Of a stretch of DNA of 58,757 bases, positions 1 through 44,939 are shown piece after piece (the first letter of the stretch is position 1; the number at the start of each line of letters is the position of its first letter). The DNA is from a virus (taxonomy: Duplodnaviria > Caudoviricetes), in IMG/VR virus record IMGVR_UViG_3300046697_000245, positions 1 through 58,757 of that record; one strand, given 5' to 3'. Under the pieces are notes generated by a model that saw nothing but the letters and a program-made list of their open reading frames with translations, ran no database searches and was not told the DNA's origin. Position numbers and translations under genes: made by a program.

Positions 1-322
1 GCTCAGGCTCGTCCACAATGCCCTGCGGTCGGCGGCGCTCAGGCTCGGCCACCATGCCCTGCGGTCGGCGTCGCTCAGGCTCGTCCACAATGCCCAGCGG
101 TCGGCGTCGCTCAGGCTCGTCCACCATGCCCTGCGGTCGGCGTCGCTCAGGCTCGTCCACAATGCCCTGCGGTCGGCGTCGCTCAGGCTCGTCCACCATG
201 CCCTGCGGTCGGCGGCGCTCAGGCTCGGCCACCATGCCCAGCGGTCGGCGTCGCTCAGGCTCGTCCACAATGCCCTGCGGTCGGCGTCGCTCAGGCTCGG
301 CCACAATGCCCTGCGTTCGGCC
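1..322. repeat. 36-bp tandem repeat, ~9 copies, runs off the left edge
   Basis: Unit GCTCAGGCTCG(T/G)CCAC(A/C)ATGCCC(T/A)GCGGTCGGCG(T/G)C repeats contiguously from position 1 with no spacers. Confidence 0.97.
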
Positions 323-387: not shown

Positions 388-543
388 TTACAGGTTCGCG
401 CGCTCCGCAGCCAAACACTTCCGGCAGACCGGCTCGCGGCTGCTCTTGTTCTTGCCGCCCTTCTGGTTGACGAGAAATATCCAGGCGACCGCTTGTTCCT
501 CGCAGCGGCGGCACTTACGCCTGGTCTCCCTCTCCACCATCAT
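388..543 (-). CDS. Small CxxC...CxxC zinc-finger protein (51 aa)
   Basis: Manual translation MMVERETRRKCRRCEEQAVAW...EPVCRKCLAAERANL; ATGA overlap with the groES stop codon. Confidence 0.7.
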   Translation of the reverse strand: MMVERETRRKCRRCEEQAVAWIFLVNQKGGKNKSSREPVCRKCLAAERANL

Positions 544-1037
544 CGTGAAAAACTTCCGAGCCATGGTTTACTATCCTTTGCAAGGAGAACCGCATGAACC
601 GCACACTTATCAGCGATCGGCAACTCTAACTGGCGCGGCGTCGCCACGCTCGCCAGCCGCCCCACAATCTCCTCGTCGCGCAGCAGCAGGTACTCCTGGC
701 CGTCAATCCAGATCGGCGTGCCTGAATACTTGGCGAAGAGCACATGATCGCCGGGCCGCGCCTCGGGAAGCGTCAACACTCCGTACTCGAAGCGGCCGCG
801 CCCAGCCTTCAGCACCAGACCCTCCAGCGGCTGCTCCTTCTGGTTATCGGGTATCAGAATCCGTCCGCTTTGCGGCCCCGCCTCCGTGACCACATCCTGC
901 CTCACCAGCACCCGGTCTCCAAACGGCTCAAATGCTGGCCACTCGAGCGGGAGCGGCCCCGCCATCGGTTCATACGGCCCCGCCCCCGGTTCATAATCAC
1001 GCCGCCCCTGAATGCCTTCTCCAGTTTCACTCGCCAT
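540..1037 (-). CDS. groES: Co-chaperonin GroES (Cpn10) with N- and C-terminal extensions
   Basis: PFGDRVLV, GRILIPD..KEQP.EG.V..AG.G, GDHVLFAKYSGT, EYLLLRDEEIVG; GGAG-type SD upstream. Confidence 0.93.
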   Translation of the reverse strand: MASETGEGIQGRRDYEPGAGPYEPMAGPLPLEWPAFEPFGDRVLVRQDVVTEAGPQSGRILIPDNQKEQPLEGLVLKAGRGRFEYGVLTLPEARPGDHVLFAKYSGTPIWIDGQEYLLLRDEEIVGRLASVATPRQLELPIADKCAVHAVLLAKDSKPWLGSFSR

Positions 1038-1103: not shown

Positions 1104-1496
1104 TCACGGCTTCTTCATCAAGCTGTTGGTCGTTGGGTTCCAAACCCAGCCGGGATACTCTTTTTCAATGGCCAGAATCAGAGCGTTCCACTGTTCCTGC
1201 AGGTTCTGTTCCTGCTGTTGCAAAACCTGTTCCTGTTGCTTTGCCAGCGTGAACTTCAACTGGATATTCTCCATCTGCGTCTTCTTCAGTTCACTCAGCT
1301 CTGGCGGCAGCGCCGGCTGCACCGGCTTTGTGGCCGCTGGCGCCGCCGCTGGCTGCGCCGGTGTGGGTTGTGACGGCTTGGGCTGTGGCGCGGCAGCCGT
1401 AGCGGCGCTGGCGCCGCTCTTTTGCTGCGCGGGCTTGTCCTGGGCATAGGCCAGCATCGAACCAGCCAACAGTATTGCGATTGCAAACGTCTTCAT
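1104..1496 (-). CDS. Exported protein: signal peptide, Pro/Ala linker, Gln-rich coiled coil
   Basis: AAGGAG SD; MKTFAIAILLAGSMLAYA|QD has an AxA cleavage motif. Confidence 0.8.
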   Translation of the reverse strand: MKTFAIAILLAGSMLAYAQDKPAQQKSGASAATAAAPQPKPSQPTPAQPAAAPAATKPVQPALPPELSELKKTQMENIQLKFTLAKQQEQVLQQQEQNLQEQWNALILAIEKEYPGWVWNPTTNSLMKKP

Positions 1497-1532
1497 ATTC
1501 AGGGTCTCCTTGGTTGGGTTAGTGGTCAGTGT

Positions 1533-2010
1533 GCGCGCTCCGGCGACCGCCGCTGCTGCTGCCAAGATCAGTCGACACGATTCCTCGCGCCGCTGATGCG
1601 GTTCGCTGGGTGTGAATGGATTGTGTTAGGGGGTCAAACGAAGAGATTGCTTCGGGTGGGAGACCCGCCGCCAATGACCTGGCCGGCGGTTCTATTGGGT
1701 TCTTTCTGATGGCAGCGAACACGTCAAACCTCGCGGCCTCCGCCTGATATACTATCAGACTCGGCCCGGCAGCAGCAGCAGCAGTGTGTAGATACCCCGG
1801 CGCGAGGCCGCGGGTTGCGCGATGTACAGCAGATTCCACGCAACCCATCCTGTAGGTTTTGGCGGGGCTGCCGTGTTTGCAACGGCTCCCGGCGAAGAAG
1901 AAACGCGGCGCTGTATCGCAAACTCGCCCGCCTGTGCCCCGCCGGTACTACCCCATAATCTCGTTGCCGGGTTATCCATGACGCCCAGCCGGTAAACCGA
2001 GCGCGAAAAT
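1533..2010 (-). ncRNA. Candidate large structured non-coding RNA or leader (~475 nt), family not recognised
   Basis: Lies downstream of a sigma70 promoter, has no convincing ORF, and has many perfect helices: 1534-40/1999-2005, 1552-63/1768-79, 1732-40/1804-12, 1812-19/1839-46, 1861-68/1936-43. Confidence 0.55.
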
Positions 2011-2023
2011 GCAACTCTTCGCT

Positions 2024-2052
2024 ACATTAGATAGGCTGGGATTGTTTGTCAA
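2024..2052 (-). promoter_or_regulatory. sigma70-type promoter
   Basis: TTGACA-17 bp-TAATGT on the minus strand, preceded by a T-tract, in an AT-rich gap after terL. Confidence 0.75.
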
Positions 2053-2102
2053 GAAAAAAATGCGGGATTGTGCAAAAAAGATCATCAAAGACGCCAACGC
2101 TG

Positions 2103-3755
2103 CTATCTCCTGATCGGCAAATCCATCACCCCGCTGCCGCCCAGCGGCATTCCCAGCCCTTCGCGCCGCTCCGCCGCCTCCAATTCCCGCTCCTTCTTCC
2201 AGCGGTAGTGCGCCATGCTGGTCTCGTCCAGACCGCTTTGGCGCAGCTTGTCCAGCTCCTCCTCCAGCGCCACCCGCCGCGGCATCACGCTCTGCTCAAT
2301 CCAGGTGTTGTACCCATAGCGCGTCTCGTCCAGCACATCGTCCAGCGGGTCGCCGCGCAGCTTCTTGATCGCCCTCCGGTCGTCAATCACCCGCGAGCTC
2401 AGGCTCTTGTAGGTGCGCGGACAGGCCTTCGTAATCACCAGGTTCATGCTCGCCAGGCCGTTATAGAGATTCTGCGCGCTGGCCTGGCTGTTCTTGCTCT
2501 CGCCGCCGCATTTGATGCATGGAATTCCATGCTTGGCAAACATCTTCTGCATCATTTCGAAGACGCTCTCGCCCTGGCCCTGATGCTTGTCGTCGGCGGT
2601 GTCGTCCACCACATAGAGCACCTTGGGCGGCTCCGGATCGCTATCGTTCAGCTTCTTCAGCCATGCGGCCTGCTTCGGCGCCCGGGCCGTCGCTTCAAAG
2701 CCCTTCTCGCAGATCCCCTCCACAAAAGTCTTCAACGGCATCTTGGGCTCATCCCGCTCCCGCGTCTTGTACGTCCGCCCCAGCGGGCTGATCGCGTACA
2801 TGCCGGCCGCCGCGCTGCTGTTCCCAAAGCCGAAGTCGATGCTGATAAAGTGGTTCCACCACCACTGCTCTCCAATCGATTGCAGGGCCGGGCACATATC
2901 CGGCTGCATGAAGTCAAAGTAGATGCCCTCGGCGTTGCACCAGCAGCCATCCAATAACTGCTTGCGCAGCACCGCCGCCTGGCTCATCAGGCCCTTGATC
3001 TTCGCCTGATAGTAGCTGGGATTGTCCTGAATGAAGGCTGGGATAAAAGCCGTCGAGAACGCCACCGGCTCGCCCGTCGTCCAGGTCGCCCCGCCATAGA
3101 CCTTGCCCGGCACTGTACTGGTCTCCATCGGCAGGCTGTCGTCCGCCGGCGCGGGAAAATGAATCGGGCAGCGGTTGCGCATGAAGACCTGCATCTGCCA
3201 TCCATAGCCCATGCCGCCGGGATTGCAGGTGAACCTGCCCCGTACTCGCAGGCCTTTTGAGGGGTCCGCGACCAGCCATGCCAGCATTTTGCGCACGCGA
3301 TCTTCAGGATGCTGCCCGCTCTCGTCGATGCCCAGCCAACTGCGCGGGTTGCCCTGATGGTTATCCAGATCCCTGTCGGTGGCCAGGTAGCCATACTCCA
3401 CCGTGCCGCCAGCAGGGAAGACCCAGCTATGCTCGGCGCTCTTGTGTGTTGCGCCCATAGGCTTGTACATCTGATGCATCAGGTCTTTCAGCTCCGCCAT
3501 ATCCGTGCGTTGCTTCCTGAGCAGCAGCGCGTTCAGCGCCGGGTTGCGGCGCTCCTCGGCGGCGTCCATCACCAGCATCTGAGTCTTGCCGCCTCCCGAT
3601 GCGCCGCCATAATCCAGCAACTCCGCCCGCGAGCACAGCGCCGCCTGTTGAGCAGCGGACAGCGGCCACCAGCCCGTGTACCCGGCGGGCCGCGGCTCCA
3701 GCGGAGGAAAGTGGCAATCAATCATGGGCGCGCTCTCCTCGCGCGCAGTGGTCAT
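2103..3755 (-). CDS. terL: Terminase large subunit
   Basis: Walker A YGGASGGGKT, Walker B LGIDE, motif III TCNPGG, nuclease ISIDFG and C-terminal DDxxD. Confidence 0.93.
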   Translation of the reverse strand: MTTAREESAPMIDCHFPPLEPRPAGYTGWWPLSAAQQAALCSRAELLDYGGASGGGKTQMLVMDAAEERRNPALNALLLRKQRTDMAELKDLMHQMYKPMGATHKSAEHSWVFPAGGTVEYGYLATDRDLDNHQGNPRSWLGIDESGQHPEDRVRKMLAWLVADPSKGLRVRGRFTCNPGGMGYGWQMQVFMRNRCPIHFPAPADDSLPMETSTVPGKVYGGATWTTGEPVAFSTAFIPAFIQDNPSYYQAKIKGLMSQAAVLRKQLLDGCWCNAEGIYFDFMQPDMCPALQSIGEQWWWNHFISIDFGFGNSSAAAGMYAISPLGRTYKTRERDEPKMPLKTFVEGICEKGFEATARAPKQAAWLKKLNDSDPEPPKVLYVVDDTADDKHQGQGESVFEMMQKMFAKHGIPCIKCGGESKNSQASAQNLYNGLASMNLVITKACPRTYKSLSSRVIDDRRAIKKLRGDPLDDVLDETRYGYNTWIEQSVMPRRVALEEELDKLRQSGLDETSMAHYRWKKERELEAAERREGLGMPLGGSGVMDLPIRR

Positions 3756-4533: not shown

Positions 4534-7500
4534 CTAGTACTCAATCCCCGCCTTGTCCAGCCGCGCCATCAGGCCGTCGGCGGCGGCGGCGCGCTTTTCC
4601 CCCACTTCCTTGATTGAATTCGTACCTTTTGTCTGCATAATCTTTTTCATTTCCTCTTTCTCGCCGGCATCGGCCCGCTTCCAAATCTCCAGCGCATCAT
4701 CCATTCCCAGATGGTCTACATCATACTGCAATGCTGTCATGCCGGCGCGTTTAACAATTGTCTCAAACTCGCTGTCAGTCCATTTTCCCGCACCTAATTC
4801 TTTCTGGGCTTCATCTGGCCAGCTTGACGTATCCGCGCCCACAGCGCCGGCTTTGCGCAGTTTCATGACCTCTTGCACAATCCGTCGCGACTCCGCCTGT
4901 TTATCCTCATCCTGCGGCTTGTCGGGGATATTGGCTATCCTCATCTTTGCCGCCTGGCGCTCCAGCGGCGTTCTGTAATTGTTCATCTGCAAACCCATGG
5001 CGGTAAAGAACCCATCCACCAGCCCCTCGCTCGACGTGTTCAGAACTTTTTGCACCGGGATCGGCGTACTCTGCTTTGCATAGTTTTTGAAAAAGCTGCT
5101 CTTGGTCTCCTGCCGGCCAAAGTTGTCTCTCCCTGTAATGAACTCGATAGTTGGCCTGACCGTCACCGGATTCAGACGGTTGTAACCCCACTCCACGGGG
5201 TCGGTGATCAGCCCGGCAATATCACCATACACTGTGCGCAGACTGATGCGTTTTCCACCCATAACCGATCCCCAGCGTTCCGGCGTCACCACAGCAAAAG
5301 CATCTTCCGGCTTCCAGTATCCTCCAGCCATTCCCTTGTCATGATTGATTGCCGCATTGACAATGCGGCAAGTCGCATACATCAGCACCGCGCCTCGAAT
5401 CAAGGCTAATCTCTGTTCCCCTCCATATTTTGAGAAGCCCTGCGCCACAAACTGCGCGCGCGCCTTGGTAAAGTCCGGGCTGAAAGTAAGCAGATGCTCG
5501 GCAGCTTTCCAGGTTCTTCCGCTCATAAAATCCAGATGCCGGAAAAACGCCGGATCCTGGCCGCTGAAAGCCGCATTGGTCTGGCTGGCGCTCATTGCGT
5601 GAATCTCATCCGGCGTCATCTTCGCCGCGTGTCCGGGCCTCACTCCGCCGTAGCGGTTCATGTTGCGATCGTCAATGATTTTGTAAGCCTTACCCTTGAG
5701 CCGCGGAATCCAGTCGCGGAAGAGATAACGCTTGTAACTCTGCATTCCCGGCAATCCGCTCAGCACTCCCTCCGGGTCAATGTGCAGCAGTTCCAGTCCA
5801 TGCTTCACGCCCTCCAGCACCTGCTGGTCTTTTGCCAGCACCTTCAAATCCGGCACGCTGAATGGATTGATAAAGTGATCGAGCGCATGGGTTCCTAACT
5901 GCACCTGATGGAAGCCGCTGCCGTAGAGAATTGCTCCCTTCACCTTTGCTCCCGCTGTTTGAGTCCCTCTCAGACCAGCTTTCATTACATTCACCGCGGC
6001 ATGTTCCGAGGGTGTCTTCAACCAGCTCTCCGCCAGCAGGTCGCTGATCCGCCCGGCATAATCCTTGTGAATCAGCAGGTCGCCGCGCATGGCCGCCCTC
6101 TTATCAGCGGGCACGGGAAAGTGTGTATCCTCCGGGCCAAAGAGCTTGCCTTGCTCGGTTTCGCTCATCTTGTCGTAGCCCGGCACCAGCATTTTGCGAT
6201 CAGCCTCCGTCATCTCCCACTCAAAGTTCTTGAGCTGGCTATAGGGCAGACGCACATAGTCGTTCATATCCAGTGGCCGTTTCGGCTGTTGCACAATGCG
6301 AGCATCGCCACTTGCATCCTTGTCCAGCATCGTCCAGCCCGCCCGCGACTCCAGCACGGCGATGGGCTTCAACTTCTCATGCTGATTCAGGTAATCCAAC
6401 ACCTCTTTTATCGCCGTCTCCTGGGTCTGGCCTTTGTTCGTAAACAGCGTGTCTTCCGGGCCTTTCACGTACCACATATCCTTGCCGTCGTCATCCTTGA
6501 GGCTGATGGGTTCAAAGCCCGTGGGCAGTTCCGTGTAGACCTTCGGCTTCTCCACCGTCCCGGTTAGCAGACTCTTGACAAAGCCGCGAGTCATAAATGC
6601 TTTTGTGAAGGAGTCGTGATACGCGCTCAGAATCTTGCCCGCATCCATCGTCTTGGGGTCTTCGCCATGCGCCAGCGCCTCAAAGAAGTTTGGCCAAACA
6701 CGTTCTTTCAGAAAGCCGGGGCTGGGCGCCAGTTCGCTCAGGCTGGCCGCCGCACGGATATTCCCCAGCATCGCCGGGTCACTGGCATACATGTGCATGG
6801 CATAGTGGCTGGCTCCGGCGGGCAGCAGCCCAGCATCAATGAGAATCTTGAGTTGTTGATCGAAGTAATCCCGATGCGCCGCCGCCACCGCTTTCTGTTC
6901 CGGCGTGAGGCGTAGCGCGTCTCTGAAGTCTTGCAGCCGTTTCTGCGCGGCGGGATTGGCCATGTGCCTGACTTCTGCCGCCCACCGCTTCAGTTCCTGC
7001 TCATCTTTGGCTTCGCTAAAAACGGTGATGGCGTTGCGCTCGCGCTCGCTGGGCGCAACGCGCTTCAACTCCTTCTGATAGGTGTCCACATCCATTGCGG
7101 ATTTGAACTCGGCGCCGCGCAGGTCACCCAGGTTCTTGAAGTAATCAGTCCACGGCGCGGGCTTGCTCCAACTGCTCCATGCACCAACGGAAGCGCCATG
7201 CACGGCGCCCAGGGCGCCTTGCAGTTTGGTGCGGCCTGTACCAAACGCATCCCGGCCGGCATCCGAGGCGGCGGTCACGCGCTCTTTCATGGTCATGGAG
7301 CGTTTAGGCAGCTTGGCCAGTTCGCTGATTGCATCTTCCAGCGCATGGCTGGTATCCAGCTTCGACGGTGTAGCGCCGGCCTCCCGGCCGGCTGTCGCGC
7401 GGGCGGCCTCGCCAGCGCGCTGAAACATCGGAAAGCCTTGCTGCATCGCGCTCTGGCGCATCGCGTCGGTCACCGGCAGGTAGGGCACGGTCATATCCGG

Positions 7501-10500
7501 TCCAGCTAAGTGAGTTTTGTATTCCTCGGCTGCCATTTTTGCTTGGTCCATCCTAAACACTGAGTTTGATCCGAAGAATTTAACAGGGGACCCGTCGGCA
7601 TCTTGGACTTCATATCCATTGCCAACCTGTTCAACCTTCAGCTTTGCGTGATCGCCGAGTCGCGTCTCCCCCACCCGCGCGCTCTTCAAAAACCATGTCG
7701 GCGCCTTGTCCAGGTCTGACCACTGATCGCTGATAGCTGAAAGCTGTTTTTGAAACAGGCTCGCCATCCCCCCCGCTTCCGTCCCGGCAAACAGCGGCGA
7801 CTCCCGCTCCATCCGCCCCGCCGCTCCGCTGATGCTCGGCCTGGGCGCAAGCAGCCGGTCAGAGAGTTGCAATCCCGTCTCTGAGAGGTTTCTGGCTTGA
7901 GCCACGTGCCGTAGTCTGATATGTTCTTCGAGCCGCTCTATATCTGCATCAAGTCGGTCTAATTCATCGTTGGCGCGGGCGAATTGTGCGGTGCCCTCAG
8001 GTGCGGCGGAGTACGCTCTAGCGGCTTTATCATGCTGCGTGTGCAAATCGGCAAGCTCTGCATCTAATGCGGTAACCGCCTCGCGTTCCCGCACAGCGCC
8101 CTCAAAGCCCGGCAGCGCCACCGCCTCACCCTGCAACGGCACAAACCCAGCGCGGCGCGCCCGCATCCGCTGGAAAAACCCGCTCCGCGCCGCCGGCACT
8201 TGCTGATCGCTGACGGCTGACGGCGGACGGCTGCTCTTCAGTTCACCTTCCTTCGCGCCCGCTCGCGCAGCACCTCGTTCATCACCTTTTGCCGTGGGTC
8301 GTGTTCCGGCGCCAGGCTCACGTGATACTCGCCCGGTTTCAGCGGCGGCATCTCCCGCAAATGCTTTGCCGCTATCTGGTCGAACTCTTTCTCGTGCTTC
8401 CGGTTCAGCGCCTCCCGGAATGCGCTGGTCATACTCCCTGCCATAGTCTGCCCCTTTCAGTTCATCAATAATCCGTTGCATCGACCGCTCCACCGGCGGC
8501 ATATCATCCAAAATCTCCGGCCCAAATTCATCCACAGCCGCCGTCAGAAAAGCGTGTGCCACGTCGACACGCTCCGCTTCAGTTGCATCCAGCGCCGGGT
8601 CGCCGGCCAGCGGTTTGGCCAGCAGCTCATGAGCCATCTCCCATTGCGCCGCCGCCGGATCGCCGGCGCCATACCCCAACTTACGCAGCCGCGCGGCCAT
8701 CTCCGCCACCTCAGGCCGGGTGGCAATCTCTCGCATGGCGTCGGAGTTCATTAGCTCATGCCGGATTGCCCAGCCGTGCCAGGCCTCCTCGCGCGCCGTG
8801 TCGTCGCGATAGTCGCCGCGCAGCACCGTGGTCAGCCCATCCTCACCCTTGGCCGCCGCCAGCGCCTTCGCCATCCGGTCGTAACCGTCCGCCGCCGTGT
8901 TCCGCCCATCCTTGCGCGCGGCGGCCGCCGCCTCCCGCATGATTGCCGCGCCTGTCCGGCTCACATGTTCCGGCAGCGTCATGCCCAGCCAGTCCTGCCC
9001 CGCGCCCAACGGGTTCCGTCCGGCGCTATCCGTCATCTTCGCAAAGGCCCGATGCCACAGCACCGCCGAATCCGCATCCAGCGCCACCGCCCGCCGCCCC
9101 GCCGCGTCTACCGCCTCCGGCCGCGCCGCCACCGCATTCTCATGCAGCCCGCGCCCCTTCGCCGCATCCTTGGCCTTGGTGAAGCGTGCAATCCGCAAAA
9201 CCTCAGACTCGCCGGCAGAGCGGGGACTCGGAACTCTGTTCCCTGCTTCGCCGGCATTTCTAACTCCTCCAGCCGCACTAACACTGCCCGTGCGGCCAGC
9301 ATCAGTATACGCCACATCCTGCGAACGCGCCACGGCTTCGCCGCCAGGCGGCATGGCAGGCGAGGTTGCTCCGGATGGTTCGGCTTTGCGCAGCGTGCCA
9401 TCCAAATCCACCAGAATAGGCTTGCCTTCATCGCCGGGGTTAGTGGTATGGCTTAATATGCGGCCAGTGTTGTGTTCCACATTTGAACTGTCGTCGTAGA
9501 TAGCCCCGTCTCCGGCATCCTTCACGTCAGTGATCGGCAGGCTCACCCCAAACTGCTCGCGGATTGCCGCATCAACGGCGCGGCGGTTGGCTTCGACCGG
9601 CTCCCTGCTGATGCGCCGCGTAAATATCTTTACGGGCAAACCTTTATCAATCCGCTCACGCACCAGTTTGGCAATGTCTCCGTCGATAGGCGCCCCTATC
9701 GGCGGCACTGTAGAGCCGGCATCCCCGCCCGCCGCCTGCTTCTCCGGCCACCGCACATACTTTGCGGGAATGTCGCGCAACGTGCTGCCGTCGGCAAGGT
9801 CCACACGGACCAATCCCGGTATTCCGTTCGTGGGCCTTGAGTAATGCCGCGCGGTGCCGCTCACCCAGCTTCCGTCTACCTTATTGCGCACCTCAACAGG
9901 CAACGCAATCTTGTTGGTCTGCCCGTTTGGAGGCCGCCATTCTACCTCTGCGGCTGGGGCGCTTCCGCTTCCGGCTGTGGTTGGGGCTGTAGGTCTGGGC
10001 GCTCCGGCTGGCTGGACTGGTCCGGCTGAAGCGCGAACCTCTCCTGCATTTCCTCTGGATGCGCCAGCGCCCACTGCACCGCGTCCCGCGCCCGCTGCTT
10101 GCTGGGGCTGACCCGCCGCGGCGAGCGTATCCGATTGGTTGAGGTCTGCAATGCCATGATGGAACTCCTCGTCTGTCAGTGTACTCCCAAATGCGTGATT
10201 GAAGGCGTCAAAAGCCTCTCCCCCGCCAAACATTCTTGTTGCGCCCGGCAGGTTCTGCTTCGCGTCTGTAGCAAAGTTCTGAAAGCGCGTCCTGACCGCA
10301 TTCGGCTTTTCGTCCAACACCTTTACCAGCGCGTCGACAACCGGATTCCGGCCCGGCCCAAAGATGCTTCGCTGGTTCACCGTCAGTTCTACCGTCGAGC
10401 CGTTCCGGGCAATCGTCGTGTGCTCAGCCACCGCGCGCAGCAGCGCCGGCCTAACCGCATAAATCAGGTTCCACTCATCCGGCCTCGAGCCAATCGCCGA

Positions 10501-13500
10501 GATCGACCCCAGGCTCTTCTCGATCTTGTCCTTGATCGACTTCGGCGCCGCGTCCAGCAGACGTGAATCGTTAAAGACCGACCCCATCATCGCCCGTTCA
10601 ATAAAGGTTTTGCCCTCTTCGCTCAGCGACTTGCCATCGGATTCAAGGTACTGCGGACGCTCCCGCTCGGTCAGCGCGCCGTCCTGCACCATCATCTGCA
10701 ATATCTCCGGGCCCTTGCGACCCAGCACCTCGCGCAGGCTGCTGTCATCCTCATTCTGCATCGCGCTCACGGTTTGCAGGGTCTCCGGCTTCAACTTCTT
10801 CCCGGCGCTCACCGCCCGCTCGCTCACGCCCAGCGCCCCGGTCATATTCTTGTTCAGCTCAGAGCCGATCCGCTGCGCCTCGTCCAGGCTGGCTGGCCGG
10901 TCAATCTGCCGCACCAGCACCGGATATTTCATGCCGACGACCTGCTCCGGCGTCAGGCCATAAGCCGCCGCATCCCGTCTCAAGGCGTCTCGATACGTCC
11001 CACCCCGGCCCTCAGCGTAAACCCGCTGCGTGCTCATTGCCCGCGAGTTGCCGCCCAGCACAGTCCCGTCCGGCGTAATCACCGGCGGGCCGTTCACCGC
11101 GTCCGGGTTGGTATTCACCGTGTAGGCCGGGTCGTAGTTTTGCGCCTGGTCGATCACCCGGTTCTGCGCCTCTTTGCTGCGCTTGTAATCCCGCTCCTGC
11201 ACACCGGCGGGGTACTCCGGATTCGGTTCAAAGCTCTGCGCATGATGGCTGGGTGCAAGGTCGCTCGCCTCTACCAGCCGATAGATCCCCGGCAGCTTCC
11301 GGGTCGGCGTCAGCACCTCCGTCGGCCGCCCATCGTGCCCGCCCACCGCCGGGCGCACAGGCAGTTTCTCCGGTTCCCTGACCGGCTGAACGTCAGGCGT
11401 TAAGTTGGCTGGCGGCTGCGCTTGCGGCCTCGGATTCCCCAGCATCGTTTGCTCGGCGCTGTCCTGCAACACCGCGCGCCCCTGATTCTCCGGCTGCTGA
11501 CCGCTGACCGCTGACGGCTGCGCTTTCTTGTGAATCTCCTCAATCTGCTTCCCCAGCCGGTCCGCCTCCGCCTGATCGCCGCGCGCCAGAGCCTCTTTCT
11601 GCTTCTCGTAGAGCGGGTCAGTCTCCTTCATCGCGTCGGCCTGGCCCTTGGGAACCACCTGCAACTCGCTGACCTGATTCGCCTCGCCCGCCGCGCCGGT
11701 CCGCACACCATACTGGTCCGCCTGCAACCCGTTCGAAGTGATCTTGTCGCGGCTCTCCACCGGCAACTGCTGCTCGACGTTCTGCCGCACGGCGGCCAGC
11801 GCCTCCGGCGTCTCCGCGCTCACCCGCGCCCCCAGATGGTCGATATTCGTCTCGGATGGCTTGCCGCGCGCTGCCTTGTTGGCCTGGCTCTCAGCATCCT
11901 TGACGCGGCTGCCCTCCACCTGCGCTCCCGGCACCCCGGCCACCGCCTGCTCCGCCATGCCTTGCAGCTTCGGCTCCTGCTCCGTCGCCGATGCGCGTAT
12001 CTCCGCCGGCTCCGCGCTCCCCTGCACCACCGGCCGCTCCGCCTCCGGCTGACCGCTGACGGCTGACGGCTGCTCCACCGTTTCACGTGGAACGCCCGCC
12101 GGCGCGGCCAACTCACCAGCCACAAGCCGTACAGGAGCCGGCACCGGAGCCACTGGAGCTTCACCACCGCCTGCCCGCCGCCCGCCAACCGTCAGCGACG
12201 CCGTGGGTCGTCCAGGCACCACCACACTGCCCTCTTCAGGGCTGTAAGAACCTTCCGGACCCGGCGCACGATAAGCTGGGCGGTAACCGGCACGCGCCTC
12301 GACCGGCCCCACACCTACGCGCACACCGCGCTCGCCGTAAGCTCCGGTGTAGCCTTTTCCCTTTGCGCCGAGACCACCGCCCAAAATGGCTCCCACATCT
12401 CCCGCCAGAGCCACGGTGTTAGCACTGGCTCCAATGGTTTGAGCGGCTTTGCTCGCCACCAGGCTGCCAATCGTTCCAAAAACCAGAACCGACGCCGTTA
12501 CTGGAGCATTTATAGCGGCGCCCGCTGCCATGGCCGGCTTGCCAAACGTCTCCATCGCTCCACTGACCGCCTGATGCGCGCCGCCTTCTCGCTCATCAAA
12601 GCTACGCGGGCGAATGCCCTTTCCGGCCAGTACGCGTACTACACCATCCGCTTCCAACTCAGGATACATTGCCGAGACCTTGGCGTAGGCGTCTCCGTAA
12701 TCCTGATCGGTCAACACTCGCATCCCGGCATCGAGGTTCTTTAAGCCTTCAATCGGATGGTAGGGAAGATCGATATGCTCTTCACGCGCAATCCGTGCGG
12801 CCTCGCTCTCGGTCGGTTCCAGGTGCAGCCCGCTAGATACCCCAGGAGCCATATCTTGCAGCGTGTGTCCGGCTTGGCTGTTAGCAAGCCACTCCCGCGC
12901 TTGCTCCAGCTTGCCCTGCTCCGGCGCGGCGCTCAGTTCTGCCTGCTCATGCCCGCGGCCAATCACCGGCGCGGATGGCACCAGTTGCGGCCCACCCTGG
13001 GCTGGCTCTAACGGCACCGCTGGCGCGGGCGTGGGCTTGAATGCATCTTGTGTGCCCAGCGCGGCGCGCGTCCTCTGCTGCAACTCCTCAGCGGCATTCT
13101 GCGGCACGGCCTTTTGCGGGTTCACAAAGGCGCTGGAGGTCATCTTGCTCTGGTCTGCCGGTCGCTGCGCGGGCGCGGGCATCAACTGCAGCCCCTGCCG
13201 CACCATCGGCGGCCGTGCGCGATCGATGGCTTCAACGCCGTAAAGCTGGCCCAGACTGCTCGCCGCTCCCGGCTGTGCCCCAGCCAAAGGCGCGGGCGGC
13301 GCTGTTGGCGCGCTCGGCGTGGCCACGGCCTGTGGTCCTGCGGTCGGCGTCGGCGCGGGAACTGGCGCGGGTGGTGCTTTCGTTTTTAGTGAAGCGATGT
13401 AAGTAGCATACGGATCATCCGCCGGCGTTGGCGGCGTTGGCGGCGCTTTCGTTTTCAGTGAAGCGATGTAGGCAGCATACGGATCTTGCGGTGGCGGCAT

Positions 13501-13572
13501 CCCGCCTGGGGGCGCATTGCTTGCCGTAACTGGTTGTACCGAAGCGTCCACTGTGCCCCCCTTGACTTTCAA
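4534..13572 (-). CDS. Giant (~3000 aa) polyvalent internal-virion/ejection protein: RelA/SpoT-like, DdrB-type ParB-like, SH3/Tudor-like, permuted HAD and zincin-like domains
   Basis: Last of three ejection-type ORFs. Motifs: SRVK...S...K, DHLGARV, ELQ; YRLVEASDL.PSH...QERDY...GPPV...G.VLGGNSR; DLDGTL; EEAWH. Real start is probably GTG at 13551 (SD AAGGGGG). Confidence 0.8.
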   Translation of the reverse strand: MKVKGGTVDASVQPVTASNAPPGGMPPPQDPYAAYIASLKTKAPPTPPTPADDPYATYIASLKTKAPPAPVPAPTPTAGPQAVATPSAPTAPPAPLAGAQPGAASSLGQLYGVEAIDRARPPMVRQGLQLMPAPAQRPADQSKMTSSAFVNPQKAVPQNAAEELQQRTRAALGTQDAFKPTPAPAVPLEPAQGGPQLVPSAPVIGRGHEQAELSAAPEQGKLEQAREWLANSQAGHTLQDMAPGVSSGLHLEPTESEAARIAREEHIDLPYHPIEGLKNLDAGMRVLTDQDYGDAYAKVSAMYPELEADGVVRVLAGKGIRPRSFDEREGGAHQAVSGAMETFGKPAMAAGAAINAPVTASVLVFGTIGSLVASKAAQTIGASANTVALAGDVGAILGGGLGAKGKGYTGAYGERGVRVGVGPVEARAGYRPAYRAPGPEGSYSPEEGSVVVPGRPTASLTVGGRRAGGGEAPVAPVPAPVRLVAGELAAPAGVPRETVEQPSAVSGQPEAERPVVQGSAEPAEIRASATEQEPKLQGMAEQAVAGVPGAQVEGSRVKDAESQANKAARGKPSETNIDHLGARVSAETPEALAAVRQNVEQQLPVESRDKITSNGLQADQYGVRTGAAGEANQVSELQVVPKGQADAMKETDPLYEKQKEALARGDQAEADRLGKQIEEIHKKAQPSAVSGQQPENQGRAVLQDSAEQTMLGNPRPQAQPPANLTPDVQPVREPEKLPVRPAVGGHDGRPTEVLTPTRKLPGIYRLVEASDLAPSHHAQSFEPNPEYPAGVQERDYKRSKEAQNRVIDQAQNYDPAYTVNTNPDAVNGPPVITPDGTVLGGNSRAMSTQRVYAEGRGGTYRDALRRDAAAYGLTPEQVVGMKYPVLVRQIDRPASLDEAQRIGSELNKNMTGALGVSERAVSAGKKLKPETLQTVSAMQNEDDSSLREVLGRKGPEILQMMVQDGALTERERPQYLESDGKSLSEEGKTFIERAMMGSVFNDSRLLDAAPKSIKDKIEKSLGSISAIGSRPDEWNLIYAVRPALLRAVAEHTTIARNGSTVELTVNQRSIFGPGRNPVVDALVKVLDEKPNAVRTRFQNFATDAKQNLPGATRMFGGGEAFDAFNHAFGSTLTDEEFHHGIADLNQSDTLAAAGQPQQAAGAGRGAVGAGASRGNAGEVRASAGPVQPAGAPRPTAPTTAGSGSAPAAEVEWRPPNGQTNKIALPVEVRNKVDGSWVSGTARHYSRPTNGIPGLVRVDLADGSTLRDIPAKYVRWPEKQAAGGDAGSTVPPIGAPIDGDIAKLVRERIDKGLPVKIFTRRISREPVEANRRAVDAAIREQFGVSLPITDVKDAGDGAIYDDSSNVEHNTGRILSHTTNPGDEGKPILVDLDGTLRKAEPSGATSPAMPPGGEAVARSQDVAYTDAGRTGSVSAAGGVRNAGEAGNRVPSPRSAGESEVLRIARFTKAKDAAKGRGLHENAVAARPEAVDAAGRRAVALDADSAVLWHRAFAKMTDSAGRNPLGAGQDWLGMTLPEHVSRTGAAIMREAAAAARKDGRNTAADGYDRMAKALAAAKGEDGLTTVLRGDYRDDTAREEAWHGWAIRHELMNSDAMREIATRPEVAEMAARLRKLGYGAGDPAAAQWEMAHELLAKPLAGDPALDATEAERVDVAHAFLTAAVDEFGPEILDDMPPVERSMQRIIDELKGADYGREYDQRIPGGAEPEARERVRPDSGKAFAGDAAAETGRVSREPGAGTRPTAKGDERGAARAGAKEGELKSSRPPSAVSDQQVPAARSGFFQRMRARRAGFVPLQGEAVALPGFEGAVREREAVTALDAELADLHTQHDKAARAYSAAPEGTAQFARANDELDRLDADIERLEEHIRLRHVAQARNLSETGLQLSDRLLAPRPSISGAAGRMERESPLFAGTEAGGMASLFQKQLSAISDQWSDLDKAPTWFLKSARVGETRLGDHAKLKVEQVGNGYEVQDADGSPVKFFGSNSVFRMDQAKMAAEEYKTHLAGPDMTVPYLPVTDAMRQSAMQQGFPMFQRAGEAARATAGREAGATPSKLDTSHALEDAISELAKLPKRSMTMKERVTAASDAGRDAFGTGRTKLQGALGAVHGASVGAWSSWSKPAPWTDYFKNLGDLRGAEFKSAMDVDTYQKELKRVAPSERERNAITVFSEAKDEQELKRWAAEVRHMANPAAQKRLQDFRDALRLTPEQKAVAAAHRDYFDQQLKILIDAGLLPAGASHYAMHMYASDPAMLGNIRAAASLSELAPSPGFLKERVWPNFFEALAHGEDPKTMDAGKILSAYHDSFTKAFMTRGFVKSLLTGTVEKPKVYTELPTGFEPISLKDDDGKDMWYVKGPEDTLFTNKGQTQETAIKEVLDYLNQHEKLKPIAVLESRAGWTMLDKDASGDARIVQQPKRPLDMNDYVRLPYSQLKNFEWEMTEADRKMLVPGYDKMSETEQGKLFGPEDTHFPVPADKRAAMRGDLLIHKDYAGRISDLLAESWLKTPSEHAAVNVMKAGLRGTQTAGAKVKGAILYGSGFHQVQLGTHALDHFINPFSVPDLKVLAKDQQVLEGVKHGLELLHIDPEGVLSGLPGMQSYKRYLFRDWIPRLKGKAYKIIDDRNMNRYGGVRPGHAAKMTPDEIHAMSASQTNAAFSGQDPAFFRHLDFMSGRTWKAAEHLLTFSPDFTKARAQFVAQGFSKYGGEQRLALIRGAVLMYATCRIVNAAINHDKGMAGGYWKPEDAFAVVTPERWGSVMGGKRISLRTVYGDIAGLITDPVEWGYNRLNPVTVRPTIEFITGRDNFGRQETKSSFFKNYAKQSTPIPVQKVLNTSSEGLVDGFFTAMGLQMNNYRTPLERQAAKMRIANIPDKPQDEDKQAESRRIVQEVMKLRKAGAVGADTSSWPDEAQKELGAGKWTDSEFETIVKRAGMTALQYDVDHLGMDDALEIWKRADAGEKEEMKKIMQTKGTNSIKEVGEKRAAAADGLMARLDKAGIEY
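12079..12094. promoter_or_regulatory. parS-like palindrome inside the giant gene
   Basis: CGTTTCACGTGGAACG matches the 14-bp core of the widespread chromosomal parS consensus TGTTNCACGTGAAACA. Confidence 0.7.
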
Positions 13573-43383: not shown

Positions 43384-44559
43384 TCAGTCCCTGGTCCCGA
43401 GGCCCTTGATCTTCGCCGCCCAGGCCTCCAGCATCTCGCGCCGCTCAGCCGCGTAGGCTGCTCGATTGTACACCCCGCGCACCCCGCCAATCTCGTGCCC
43501 TAACGCCTTTTCCACCACCTCAGCCTTCCATCCCGCCTCGGTCAGCAGCGTCGACGCCGTGCGCCTCAAGTCATGCACCGTGAAGTGCTCCACATGCGCC
43601 GCCCGCGCCACCTTGGCCAGCGTCCGGTTCAGCGCCCCAGCCCACAGCGGCCACGTCAAAGCCTCCCGGCCAGGCAACACCATCTCCACCCGCGGCCCCT
43701 GCATCGCGCGCAACTCCCGCAAACACTCCAGCGATCCATCGCTCAGCGGCACCAGCATCTCCCGGCCCATCTTCGTCCGCCCCGCCGGTATCACCCACTC
43801 CGCCCGCTTCAAATCTACCTCCACCCAGCGCGCCAGCCGCAACTCGCTCTTGCGCACCATCGTCAGCAAAAGCAGCCGGATCGCGTGCCTGTGCGCCTCC
43901 GGAACATTGCGTAATTTCTGCTTGAGTGCTCTTAATACCCGCCTCAGCTCTTCCTCGCTCAGCGCCCGATCGCGCGCCTTGCGCCGCGCCACATAGCGCA
44001 GCGGAGTGGATATTGCCGGGTTGCTGTCGGCCACGCCGCAGACCATCGCATAATCCCAAACCCGCTTGCACAGGCCGCGCAACTTGGCCGCCGCCGCCGG
44101 CCTGCCCGCTTCCAGCTTCCCAAAGATCAACGCCTGCAGCTCCCGCGCCGTCACCTTGTCCATCGGCCGCGCGCCCAGCCGCCGCACAATCTCCCGCTCC
44201 AGCGGCCTGCGCACCGCCGCCATATCCTTGCGCGCCCCGCGAGCTTCCAGGTTCTTCAGGTAGCGCGCCGCAAACTCCTTCACCGTCACCCTGGCCCCGT
44301 AGCCCTGCCGCCGCGCCTGCTCCACGCTGCGCGGATCCTCACCCTGAGCCAACGCCTCCGCCAACTCCCGCGCCCGCTCCCGCGCCGCCGCCAGCGTCAT
44401 CGCCGGGTAGGCGCCCAGCGTGATTCTGGTTGGCTGACTGCTGGCGGCTGACTGCTGGCTGCTGTACCTCCACCGCCAACTCTTTCTCCCCGTAGGCATT
44501 ACCTCCATCTCCAAGCCTTCGCCAAAACCCTGAGTATAGCGGCTCTCGCGAGTCTTCAA
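43384..44559 (-). CDS. int: Tyrosine recombinase/integrase, P4-like with arm-binding domain
   Basis: G.GL...V...G.KSW..RY, ITLG.YP...LA.AR; catalytic R (VRKSE), K (TKMG), HDLRRT, LGH, YN. Confidence 0.93.
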   Translation of the reverse strand: MKTRESRYTQGFGEGLEMEVMPTGRKSWRWRYSSQQSAASSQPTRITLGAYPAMTLAAARERARELAEALAQGEDPRSVEQARRQGYGARVTVKEFAARYLKNLEARGARKDMAAVRRPLEREIVRRLGARPMDKVTARELQALIFGKLEAGRPAAAAKLRGLCKRVWDYAMVCGVADSNPAISTPLRYVARRKARDRALSEEELRRVLRALKQKLRNVPEAHRHAIRLLLLTMVRKSELRLARWVEVDLKRAEWVIPAGRTKMGREMLVPLSDGSLECLRELRAMQGPRVEMVLPGREALTWPLWAGALNRTLAKVARAAHVEHFTVHDLRRTASTLLTEAGWKAEVVEKALGHEIGGVRGVYNRAAYAAERREMLEAWAAKIKGLGTRD

Positions 44560-44878: not shown

Positions 44879-44918
44879 TTGACAACATTGTCATCATTGT
44901 CGTAATGTTCATCATGTA
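44879..44918 (+). promoter_or_regulatory. Promoter of the + strand operon, overlapped by operator-like repeats
   Basis: TTGACA-18 bp-TAATGT; GACAA-CA-TTGTC palindrome; 9-bp-period repeats CATTGTCAT/CATTGTCGT/AATGTTCAT. Confidence 0.6.
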
Positions 44919-44939
44919 GTGAATCAGGAGGTTCAACCC

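What the first reader, a model, noticed from the sequence alone, without database searches (positions are those of the whole stretch)
1533..2010. Candidate novel ~475-nt structured RNA with a 12-bp pseudoknot, upstream of the groES operon
Seen: a TTGACA-17-TAATGT promoter fires into ~500 nt with no credible ORF. The two ends pair (1534-40/1999-2005). Internal helices: 1732-40/1804-12, 1744-49/1753-58, 1812-19/1839-46, 1861-68/1936-43, 1665-73/1680-89. A (GCA)n tract at 1768-79 lies in the loop of the 1732/1812 stem and is perfectly complementary to 1552-63 outside it, which makes a long-range pseudoknot. I see no RNase P, tmRNA, tRNA or intron hallmarks. Inference: an unclassified large phage ncRNA, or a complex leader controlling the exported-protein/groES genes.
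Basis: partly seen in the sequence, partly recalled or inferred. Interest (0 to 1): 0.8.

Follow-up and report, generated by a model that had tools for sequence, protein, structure and literature searches.

The report
Patchwork leader of a phage accessory-gene cassette
The gene-free 600 bases after the phage's terminase gene are the promoter and long, patchwork untranslated leader of an inserted accessory-gene cassette, not one large folded RNA, although a short hairpin-bearing stretch inside it is shared with a related phage.

Summary

- **Known RNA families:** Rfam and ARAGORN find nothing.
- **Folding:** 200-nt windows fold no better than shuffles or than the coding flanks. Helices of 7-9 bp are at chance level. 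The whole-length fold reaches z = -2.2, and the 12-bp (GCA)n/(GCT)n complement is a modest excess (1 of 60 shuffles).
- **Relatives:** one phage with terL 81% identical (L044) goes straight from terL to groES and lacks the whole cassette. L048 and L043 (terL 85/83%, near-identical to each other) share only three things with the window: the TTGACA-17-TAATGT promoter, a ~140-nt block (window 1790-1651, nhmmer E = 6.5e-10) and perhaps ~22 nt more.
- **Near-identical strains:** one contig carries 1297 extra bases at 1531/1543, which removes the 3' arm of the "ends pair" helix.

Best reading: this is a moron-like cassette (own promoter, long mosaic leader, exported-protein gene) at a hypervariable site between terL and groES. 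Inside the conserved block, a 12-bp hairpin keeps its shape although its inner 8 pairs are all different. It is followed by a near-invariant 24-nt core. This may be a small cis-acting leader RNA. A 67-codon ORF starting in the block lacks coding signatures.

Interest is low to moderate.

The parts
2103..3755 (-). terL (large terminase), the gene upstream of the region
   Evidence: PHROG 979 terminase large subunit, E = 4.8e-26. 242 homologues, the best 86% identical.
2024..2060 (-). Sigma-70-type promoter of the cassette: T-run 2060-2054, -35 TTGACA 2052-2047, 17-nt spacer, -10 TAATGT 2029-2024. The inferred start is near 2017.
   Evidence: Pattern match: 2 in the window against 0.27 expected. 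The same hexamers and spacing, with a different spacer sequence, lie just after terL in L048 and L043. It is found in 2 of 44 related loci, and only in those that share the cassette.
1791..2016 (-). 5' part of the leader, specific to the window.
   Evidence: No confident counterpart in L048/L043 or in any other locus. No coding signal.
1651..1790 (-). Conserved block A of the leader
   Evidence: nhmmer of L048 920-2010 against the window: E = 6.5e-10, window 1850-1651, confident from about 1790. Local alignment score 99 against shuffles 27 +/- 2.7, maximum 36.
1732..1768 (-).
   Evidence: Window -20.1 kcal/mol, z = -3.07. L048 at the same place -19.0 kcal/mol, z = -2.40, with an entirely different inner stem. 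Weaker on the antisense strand, z = -1.49 and -1.16.
1709..1732 (-). Near-invariant 24-nt core: GAGG, a 6-7-nt spacer, a GTG (ATG in L048) start codon and the first four codons.
   Evidence: Alignments.
1661..1693 (-).
   Evidence: Kept in L048 with two one-sided changes to G-U. The folds are not significant on their own, z = -1.47 and -0.89.
1519..1722 (-). 67-codon open frame that starts in the core. Probably not a protein gene.
   Evidence: G+C by codon position is flat, 0.59/0.62/0.60. Differences from the L048 frame fall 8/8/9 over codon positions in the first 24 codons. The profile has 1 marginal hit among 1.84 billion representatives.
1552..1586 (-). Short block B, possibly conserved. 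Its 3' end is the (GCT)3GCC arm at 1552-1563.
   Evidence: Roughly 20 of 22 nt (my count) match L048 from 1700 on. The alignment score of 34 is within the shuffle range, maximum 36.
1768..1785 (.). (GCA)5 tract, complementary to 1546-1563 (12 bp perfect; 18 nt at 89%)
   Evidence: One repeat unit is missing in a contig of run X4. The tract is imperfect in L048.
1104..1496 (-). Cargo gene: a 130-aa protein that reads (by eye) as a signal peptide, a Pro/Ala-rich linker and a Gln/Glu-rich tail. AAGGAG lies at 1511-1506.
   Evidence: ORF and sequence. No Pfam or PHROG family. 41% identical to the L048 ORF. Absent from L044.
540..1037 (-). groES-like co-chaperonin gene, the next conserved gene
   Evidence: Pfam Cpn10, E = 8.7e-19. 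In L044 it follows terL after 141 nt.

Best explanation
The stretch is the promoter and long 5' leader of a moron-like accessory cassette (own promoter, leader, exported-protein gene). The cassette sits at a hypervariable site between terL and groES in an uncultured phage of peat soils, whose host is probably an acidobacterium of the order Terriglobales.

Inferred: a sigma-70-type promoter at 2052-2024 starts a transcript near 2017, which runs about 520 nt to the cargo gene's ribosome-binding site (AAGGAG at 1511-1506, ATG at 1496).

The leader is a mosaic:
- About 225 nt are unique to this phage.
- A ~140-nt block is shared with the nearest cassette-bearing relative.
- A further ~22-nt stretch may also be shared.
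- The segments between these are places where relatives carry small genes or extra DNA.

The shared block holds a stable hairpin (H1), a near-invariant 24-nt core containing a Shine-Dalgarno-like GAGG and a start codon, and a second hairpin (H2). I infer that this block acts in cis on the RNA, through transcript stability or translation of what follows, while the rest of the leader has no defined fold.

For: **Presence and absence of the cassette**
- L044 (terL 81%) goes from terL to groES in 141 nt, with no promoter, leader or cargo gene.
- L048/L043 (terL 85/83%) have the promoter, block A, three small ORFs and then the cargo homologue.
- L003 (terL 66%) has different genes between terL and groES.

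**Promoter**
- It is conserved in hexamers and spacing while the spacer sequence differs.
- It occurs only in cassette-bearing loci, 2 of 44.
- The one other TTGACA-N18-TAATGT in the window lies in a divergent intergenic region.

**No coding signal:**

**Only partial conservation of the leader:**

**Variation among near-identical strains**
- One contig has 1297 nt inserted between 1531 and 1543.
- One contig lacks a GCA unit.
- 1543-1813 is otherwise identical in the X3 contig, while that contig's cargo-gene stretch (1050-1531) has 9 differences.

**Hairpin H1**
- It is kept in shape with all 8 inner pairs changed.
- It is more stable on the transcribed strand in both phages.
Against: - No transcript ends were mapped, so promoter use and the leader's extent rest on sequence alone.
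- The -10 hexamer is weak (3 of 6), and the tool's promoter scan missed the site.
- No intrinsic terminator closes the cassette, although classic morons have one.
- The whole-length fold is somewhat better than shuffles (z = -2.24), and a 12-bp complement is uncommon (1 of 60 shuffles). Some long-range pairing may therefore be real.
- Only two independent sequences carry block A (L043 and L048 are near-identical), so the hairpin conservation is an anecdote, not a statistic.
- A metatranscriptome contig covers only 1713-1881 of the 1000-2600 laid. That would also fit a discrete, stable RNA.
Confidence: 0.6

Rival explanations
1. One reading: one discrete ~475-nt structured non-coding RNA with paired ends and a 12-bp pseudoknot.
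For: - All listed helices exist.
- The whole-length fold on the - strand gives z = -2.24, with 1 of 100 shuffles as good.
- The 12-bp complement is matched by only 1 of 60 shuffles.
- No ORF has a coding signature.
Against: - No Rfam family matches.
- Local folds are no better than shuffles or coding flanks.
- Helices of 7-9 bp are at chance level.
- The 5' 225 nt and the terminal helix have no counterpart in L048/L043.
- L044 lacks the region entirely.
- A near-identical strain has 1297 nt inserted in the 3' arm of the terminal helix.
- The repeat tract varies in length and is imperfect in L048.
- The pseudoknot competes with hairpin H1 for 1735-1738.
Confidence: 0.06
2. Block A (about 1790-1651, perhaps extending to 1881) is a separate, stable small RNA that acts in trans or is processed out of the leader. 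It would not be merely part of an mRNA leader.
For: - The RNA run X21 holds one 169-nt contig identical to 1713-1881. Its only other piece in 1000-2600 is a 38-nt match with 7 mismatches.
- Block A is conserved.
- Hairpin H1 is shape-conserved and strand-biased.
Against: - A single short contig at depth 5.2 in a library that may contain DNA is thin evidence. Contigs show neither ends nor strand (the tool's own caveats).
- The contig extends 90 nt beyond the conserved block and stops inside the invariant core.
- No terminator lies downstream.
- The block as a whole folds no better than shuffles, z = -1.14 and -0.59.
Confidence: 0.12
3. The core of block A is the start of a real small protein gene (67 aa here, 53 aa in L048). 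The 'leader' would then be a gene plus its flanks.
For: - GAGG, a 6-7-nt spacer and a start codon are conserved, and the first six residues are identical apart from the start codon.
- The frame stays open for 67 and 53 codons.
- 6 of 18 changed codons in the first 24 are synonymous.
Against: - Differences fall 8/8/9 over the three codon positions.
- G+C by codon position is flat at 0.59/0.62/0.60, where real genes here show about 0.6/0.45/0.7-0.8.
- Similarity ends after about codon 24, and the tails differ in length and sequence.
- A profile search of 1.84 billion representatives gave 1 marginal hit, E = 8.2e-4, to a 2138-aa protein matched in 14 stretches.
- No Pfam or PHROG family matches the overlapping 109-aa frame.
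Confidence: 0.1
4. The conserved pieces work as DNA, not RNA. They would be palindromic protein-binding sites, or short boundary sequences at which accessory genes are swapped by recombination.
For: - H1's inner stems are perfect or near-perfect palindromes in both phages.
- The site is a proven hot spot. It shows absence in L044, three extra ORFs in L048 each preceded by a repeated ribosome-site motif, and 1297 extra nt in one strain.
Against: - H1 is more stable on the transcribed strand in both phages, because of G-U pairs.
- The palindrome sequence itself is not conserved. A shared DNA-binding protein would require it to be.
- H1 lies about 250 nt from the promoter in the window.
Confidence: 0.1

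Closest known systems
Phage morons: independent transcription units inserted between genes of a phage operon. Source: 'The moron comes of age', PMC3594210, of which I saw only the start of the abstract in the listing. The lambda/HK97 examples are recalled.
   Same: - The cassette is present in some close relatives and cleanly absent in another (L044).
- It sits between two conserved late-region genes.
- It carries its own promoter-like site.
- Its cargo is a small exported protein of unknown family.
   Different: - No intrinsic terminator was found after the cargo gene.
- The leader is unusually long, about 520 nt.
- Expression from a prophage, or lysogeny at all, is not shown.
Cis-acting leader RNAs placed just after phage promoters, such as the put antitermination RNAs of phage HK022 (recalled, not tested here).
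   Same: In L048, block A begins about 30 nt after the inferred transcript start. It holds two stem-loops, one of which keeps its shape while its sequence differs.
   Different: - The two hairpins are separated by about 40 nt, including a 24-nt invariant core.
- In the window, block A lies about 225 nt from the inferred start.
- No downstream terminator was found for it to override.
- No Rfam family matches.
Hyperplastic regions of T4-type phages, with repeated promoter/stem-loop boundaries between small accessory genes (recalled, not tested here).
   Same: - Small genes come and go at one site.
- Short conserved non-coding pieces, and in L048 a repeated ribosome-site motif, flank them.
   Different: - This is a different phage group.
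- The repeated L048 motif appears in the window only as a doubtful remnant near 1880-1868 (score at chance level).

Membership tests
Any described RNA family (Rfam 15: RNase P, tmRNA, introns, riboswitches, phage RNAs) | Covariance-model match at or above the family's gathering score | tested here: not met
   0 matches in the whole window. At E <= 10 in 1300-2300 there were 2 weak matches, both inside the cargo gene and far below gathering. 0 tRNA or tmRNA genes.
Large structured non-coding RNA (generic criteria) | Folding energy clearly below that of composition-matched shuffles | tested here: inconclusive
   Whole length z = -2.24, with 1 of 100 shuffles as good. The 200-nt windows give -1.9 to +1.2, like the coding flanks. 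Block A alone gives -1.14 and -0.59.
Large structured non-coding RNA (generic criteria) | The whole architecture is conserved in relatives, with covarying helices | tested here: not met
   Only about 140 + 22 nt are shared with L048/L043. The region is absent from L044. There is no match in 40 of 40 viral loci, in the phage collection, or (beyond 3 chance-level short matches) in 401 Terriglobales genomes. The terminal helix is interrupted in one strain.
Phage moron | Present or absent as a unit between conserved genes in close relatives | tested here: met
   L044 compared with the window and L048/L043.
Phage moron | Own promoter | tested here: inconclusive
   A consensus-like site is conserved with the cassette, but there is no transcript-start data, and the -10 matches only 3 of 6.
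Phage moron | Own terminator | tested here: not met
   No terminator-like site on the - strand between 2102 and 1037.
Phage moron | Expressed from the prophage and of benefit to the host | not testable with these tools
   The phage is uncultured, and contigs of an RNA run cannot show this.
Small protein-coding gene | Codon-position pattern of composition and substitution, and homologues at the protein level | tested here: not met
   Flat G+C by codon position and 8/8/9 differences. 1 marginal hit in 1.84 billion representatives.

The most novel reading that the evidence does not exclude
The ~140-nt block at 1790-1651 is a new cis-acting leader RNA of accessory-gene cassettes in acidobacterial phages. 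It has a 12-bp hairpin whose inner stem is fully compensated between relatives, an invariant 24-nt core holding a ribosome-binding-like site and a start codon, and a second hairpin. It would set the stability or translation of the cargo message, or be released as a stable small RNA, as the lone metatranscriptome contig hints.
Probability: 0.2. Interest if true: 0.45.

Novelty: new member of a known kind. Interest (0 to 1): 0.22.

Why it matters
- **False-positive pattern for the scan.** In a 62% G+C phage genome, a 500-nt gene-free stretch will always offer several 7-9-bp helices. The decisive test was comparison with close relatives.
- **What remains.** The example is ordinary but clean. It is an accessory-gene insertion hot spot next to the terminase gene in uncultured peat-soil phages, with a conserved promoter.
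- **A testable piece.** A short conserved leader element could be tested as a regulatory RNA. Almost nothing is known experimentally about gene control in phages of Acidobacteriota (a statement from my own knowledge, not searched).

Tried and rejected
- **Known RNA families:** none.
- **A second copy in the same genome:** only a 29-nt match at 86%.
- **Similarity in the GenBank phage collection:** none.
- **terL as a single query in viral contigs:** no relative found.
- **terL-anchored viral loci:** none of the 40 has the region. Six-frame comparison gave only short weak matches, apart from the piece later recognised as block A.
- **Genome collection:** the best terL relative is 50% identical, which is of no help.
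- **401 Terriglobales genomes:** 3 short matches of 32-42 nt at E about 7e-4 per genome, two of them on the repeat arm. I read them as chance.
- **Two exact-pattern scans of viral contigs with block-A motifs:** 0 hits each.
- **Cargo protein as an anchor in viral contigs:** 143 pattern matches, none of them a relative.
- **Small-ORF idea:** see the rivals.
- **Anti-Shine-Dalgarno idea:** the 8-nt run just after H2 is complementary to the cargo gene's ribosome site in the window, but the pairing is not kept in L048 (read by eye). Dropped.
- **Long-range pair 1583-92/1798-1807** (10 bp): I found no counterpart in L048 by eye.
- **Covariance model of block A:** not built. MAFFT puts the two H1 hairpins one column out of register, and only two distinct sequences exist.
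- **Parts of 1000-2600 without cover in the RNA run:** these prove nothing.
- **Earlier notes of this scan:** none exist for this genome or sequence.

Full report
**Setting**

The window is a 58,757-base virus record, estimated 89% complete. Around the finding, all genes lie on the - strand:
- A large terminase at 3755-2103 (PHROG 979, E = 4.8e-26).
- A gene-free stretch at 2102-1497.
- A 130-aa protein at 1496-1104, which reads (by eye) as a signal peptide, a Pro/Ala-rich linker and a Gln/Glu-rich tail. It has no Pfam or PHROG family.
- A GroES-like gene at 1037-540 (Pfam Cpn10, E = 8.7e-19).

The host is probably an acidobacterium of the order Terriglobales. Two sources name Terriglobales for terL relatives that are about 50% identical. 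Near-identical DNA turns up in peat, permafrost and lake metagenomes.

**The observation**

All the listed helices are present (read). The repeat finder lists 1732-40/1804-12 exactly. It also lists longer imperfect pairs that contain the 12-bp complement and the terminal arms. The TTGACA-17-TAATGT site is at 2052-2024 on the - strand.

No reading frame in the stretch shows the codon-position G+C pattern of the neighbouring genes. "No credible ORF" therefore holds.

On whether the helices exceed chance:
- Sixty shuffles of 1497-2012 give a longest perfect inverted repeat of 8.5 bp on average, so 7-9-bp helices are expected. Only 1 of 60 shuffles reaches 12 bp.
- The window holds seven (GCA)n tracts of at least three units and three (TGC)n tracts. 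Finding the longest GCA tract within 220 nt of a TGC tract is mildly unusual, about 0.03 by my rough estimate from those counts.
- The full-length - strand fold has z = -2.24, with 1 of 100 shuffles as good. The + strand has z = -1.22.
- 200-nt windows across the region give z from -1.9 to +1.2 on the - strand. That is the same range as the coding flanks, which reach -2.5 and -3.1.
- The minimum-energy fold uses the repeat tracts as a nested helix and does not form the 1732/1812 stem. The pseudoknot is therefore only a possibility.

Rfam gives nothing at gathering thresholds over the whole window and nothing relevant at E <= 10. ARAGORN finds no tRNA or tmRNA.

**Relatives**

I collected loci through terL.
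- Forty viral loci with terL 38-66% identical have no DNA similarity to the stretch.
- The closest of them, L003, has unrelated genes, several on the other strand, between terL and groES.
- Six metagenome loci were decisive.
  - L044 (terL 81%) runs from the terL stop to the groES start in 141 nt. It has no promoter, no leader and no exported-protein gene.
  - L048 and L043 (terL 85% and 83%, near-identical to each other) carry TTGACA, a 17-nt spacer of different sequence, and TAATGT, 32 nt after the terL stop.
  - After that comes a block matching window 1790-1651. nhmmer gives E = 6.5e-10, and the local alignment scores 99 against a shuffle maximum of 36.
  - Then L048 has three small ORFs that the window lacks, each preceded by a repeated ribosome-site motif, and then a homologue of the exported protein, 41% identical.
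  - A second short match, window 1586-1552 against L048 1700-1742, has about 20 of 22 nt identical (my count). Its score is within the shuffle range.
- The window's 5' 225 nt (2016-1791) has no counterpart anywhere.
- The promoter motif occurs downstream of terL in 2 of 44 loci with enough sequence, and only in L043 and L048.

**Near-identical strains**

- Contigs from three DNA runs cover the region with very few differences. Two are in one low-depth contig, at 1910 and 1933.
- One contig lacks a GCA unit at 1769.
- One 2050-nt contig is identical over 1543-1813. It then carries 1297 other letters in place of the 11 nt between 1531 and 1543, and resumes in the cargo gene with 9 differences over 1050-1531.
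- One RNA run holds a 169-nt contig identical to 1713-1881. Its only other piece in 1000-2600 is a 38-nt match with 7 mismatches. By the tool's own caveats this is only a weak hint of transcription.

**Inside the conserved block**

- **Hairpin H1** (1768-1732) folds at -20.1 kcal/mol with z = -3.07. L048 has a hairpin at the same place, between the same GGCC flanks, at -19.0 kcal/mol with z = -2.40. All eight inner pairs are different. Both hairpins are weaker on the antisense strand, z = -1.49 and -1.16. That fits an RNA made from the conserved promoter.
- **Core.** A 24-nt core follows H1 and is nearly invariant (1732-1709). It reads as GAGG, a 6-7-nt spacer, a start codon and four codons.
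- **Hairpin H2** (1693-1661) is kept with two one-sided changes to G-U, but it is not significant on its own.
- **Sample size.** With only two independent sequences this is suggestive, not statistical.

The frame that opens at the core runs 67 codons here and 53 in L048, but it does not look like a gene:
- Differences in the first 24 codons fall 8/8/9 over the three codon positions.
- G+C is flat across codon positions.
- Similarity ends after about codon 24.
- A profile of the two frames found only one marginal hit among 1.84 billion representatives.

**Conclusion**

The stretch is best read as the promoter and mosaic leader of a moron-like cassette at a hot spot for accessory genes. It contains one short conserved element that may act on the RNA. 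The abstract start of PMC3594210, seen in the listing, describes morons as independent transcription units spread among phages by horizontal transfer.

Two moron features are missing or untested. No terminator was found, and expression is unknown.

It passes only weakly on whole-length folding. Supplementary files of papers were not consulted and do not bear on these claims.

Noticed in passing
L048:2011-2409 (+), 3' end open at the contig end: The homologue of the window's exported protein starts with a signal-peptide-like segment and a Pro/Ala-rich linker. Its residues 80-133 then match GroEL residues about 303-356 (best E = 6.8e-13, PDB 1iok). This is either a natural fusion with a chaperonin fragment, next to a phage groES, or a chimeric assembly. 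The window's own protein shows no such match.
   Followed up: partly
window 44879-44908 (+): This is the only other TTGACA-N18-TAATGT site in the window. It lies in the gap between a - strand gene (43384-44559) and a + strand block that starts at 44919. The -35 hexamer is part of a 6-2-6 palindrome, read by eye, which looks like an operator over an early promoter.
   Followed up: no
window 1-321: A 36-nt tandem repeat of 8.9 copies with 93% matches runs to the contig end. It is in frame within a - strand ORF that starts at 360, giving a 12-residue protein repeat. The contig end falls inside this array.
   Followed up: no
L048 1303-1321, 1521-1540, 1673-1692: Three near-identical ribosome-site motifs precede three small ORFs (56, 40 and 76 aa). 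Their G+C content is lower than that of the flanking genes. This looks like a set of shuffled mini-cassettes.
   Followed up: no
window 4534-13572 (-): A single 3012-aa ORF lies two genes upstream of terL, before the 240-aa ORF at 4474-3752. It was not examined.
   Followed up: no
terL homologues P0062, P0076, P0078, P0082: Several terL relatives are 687-923 aa long and carry Pfam PF14528. This suggests insertions in the terminase gene in some members of this phage group. The window's terL has none.
   Followed up: no
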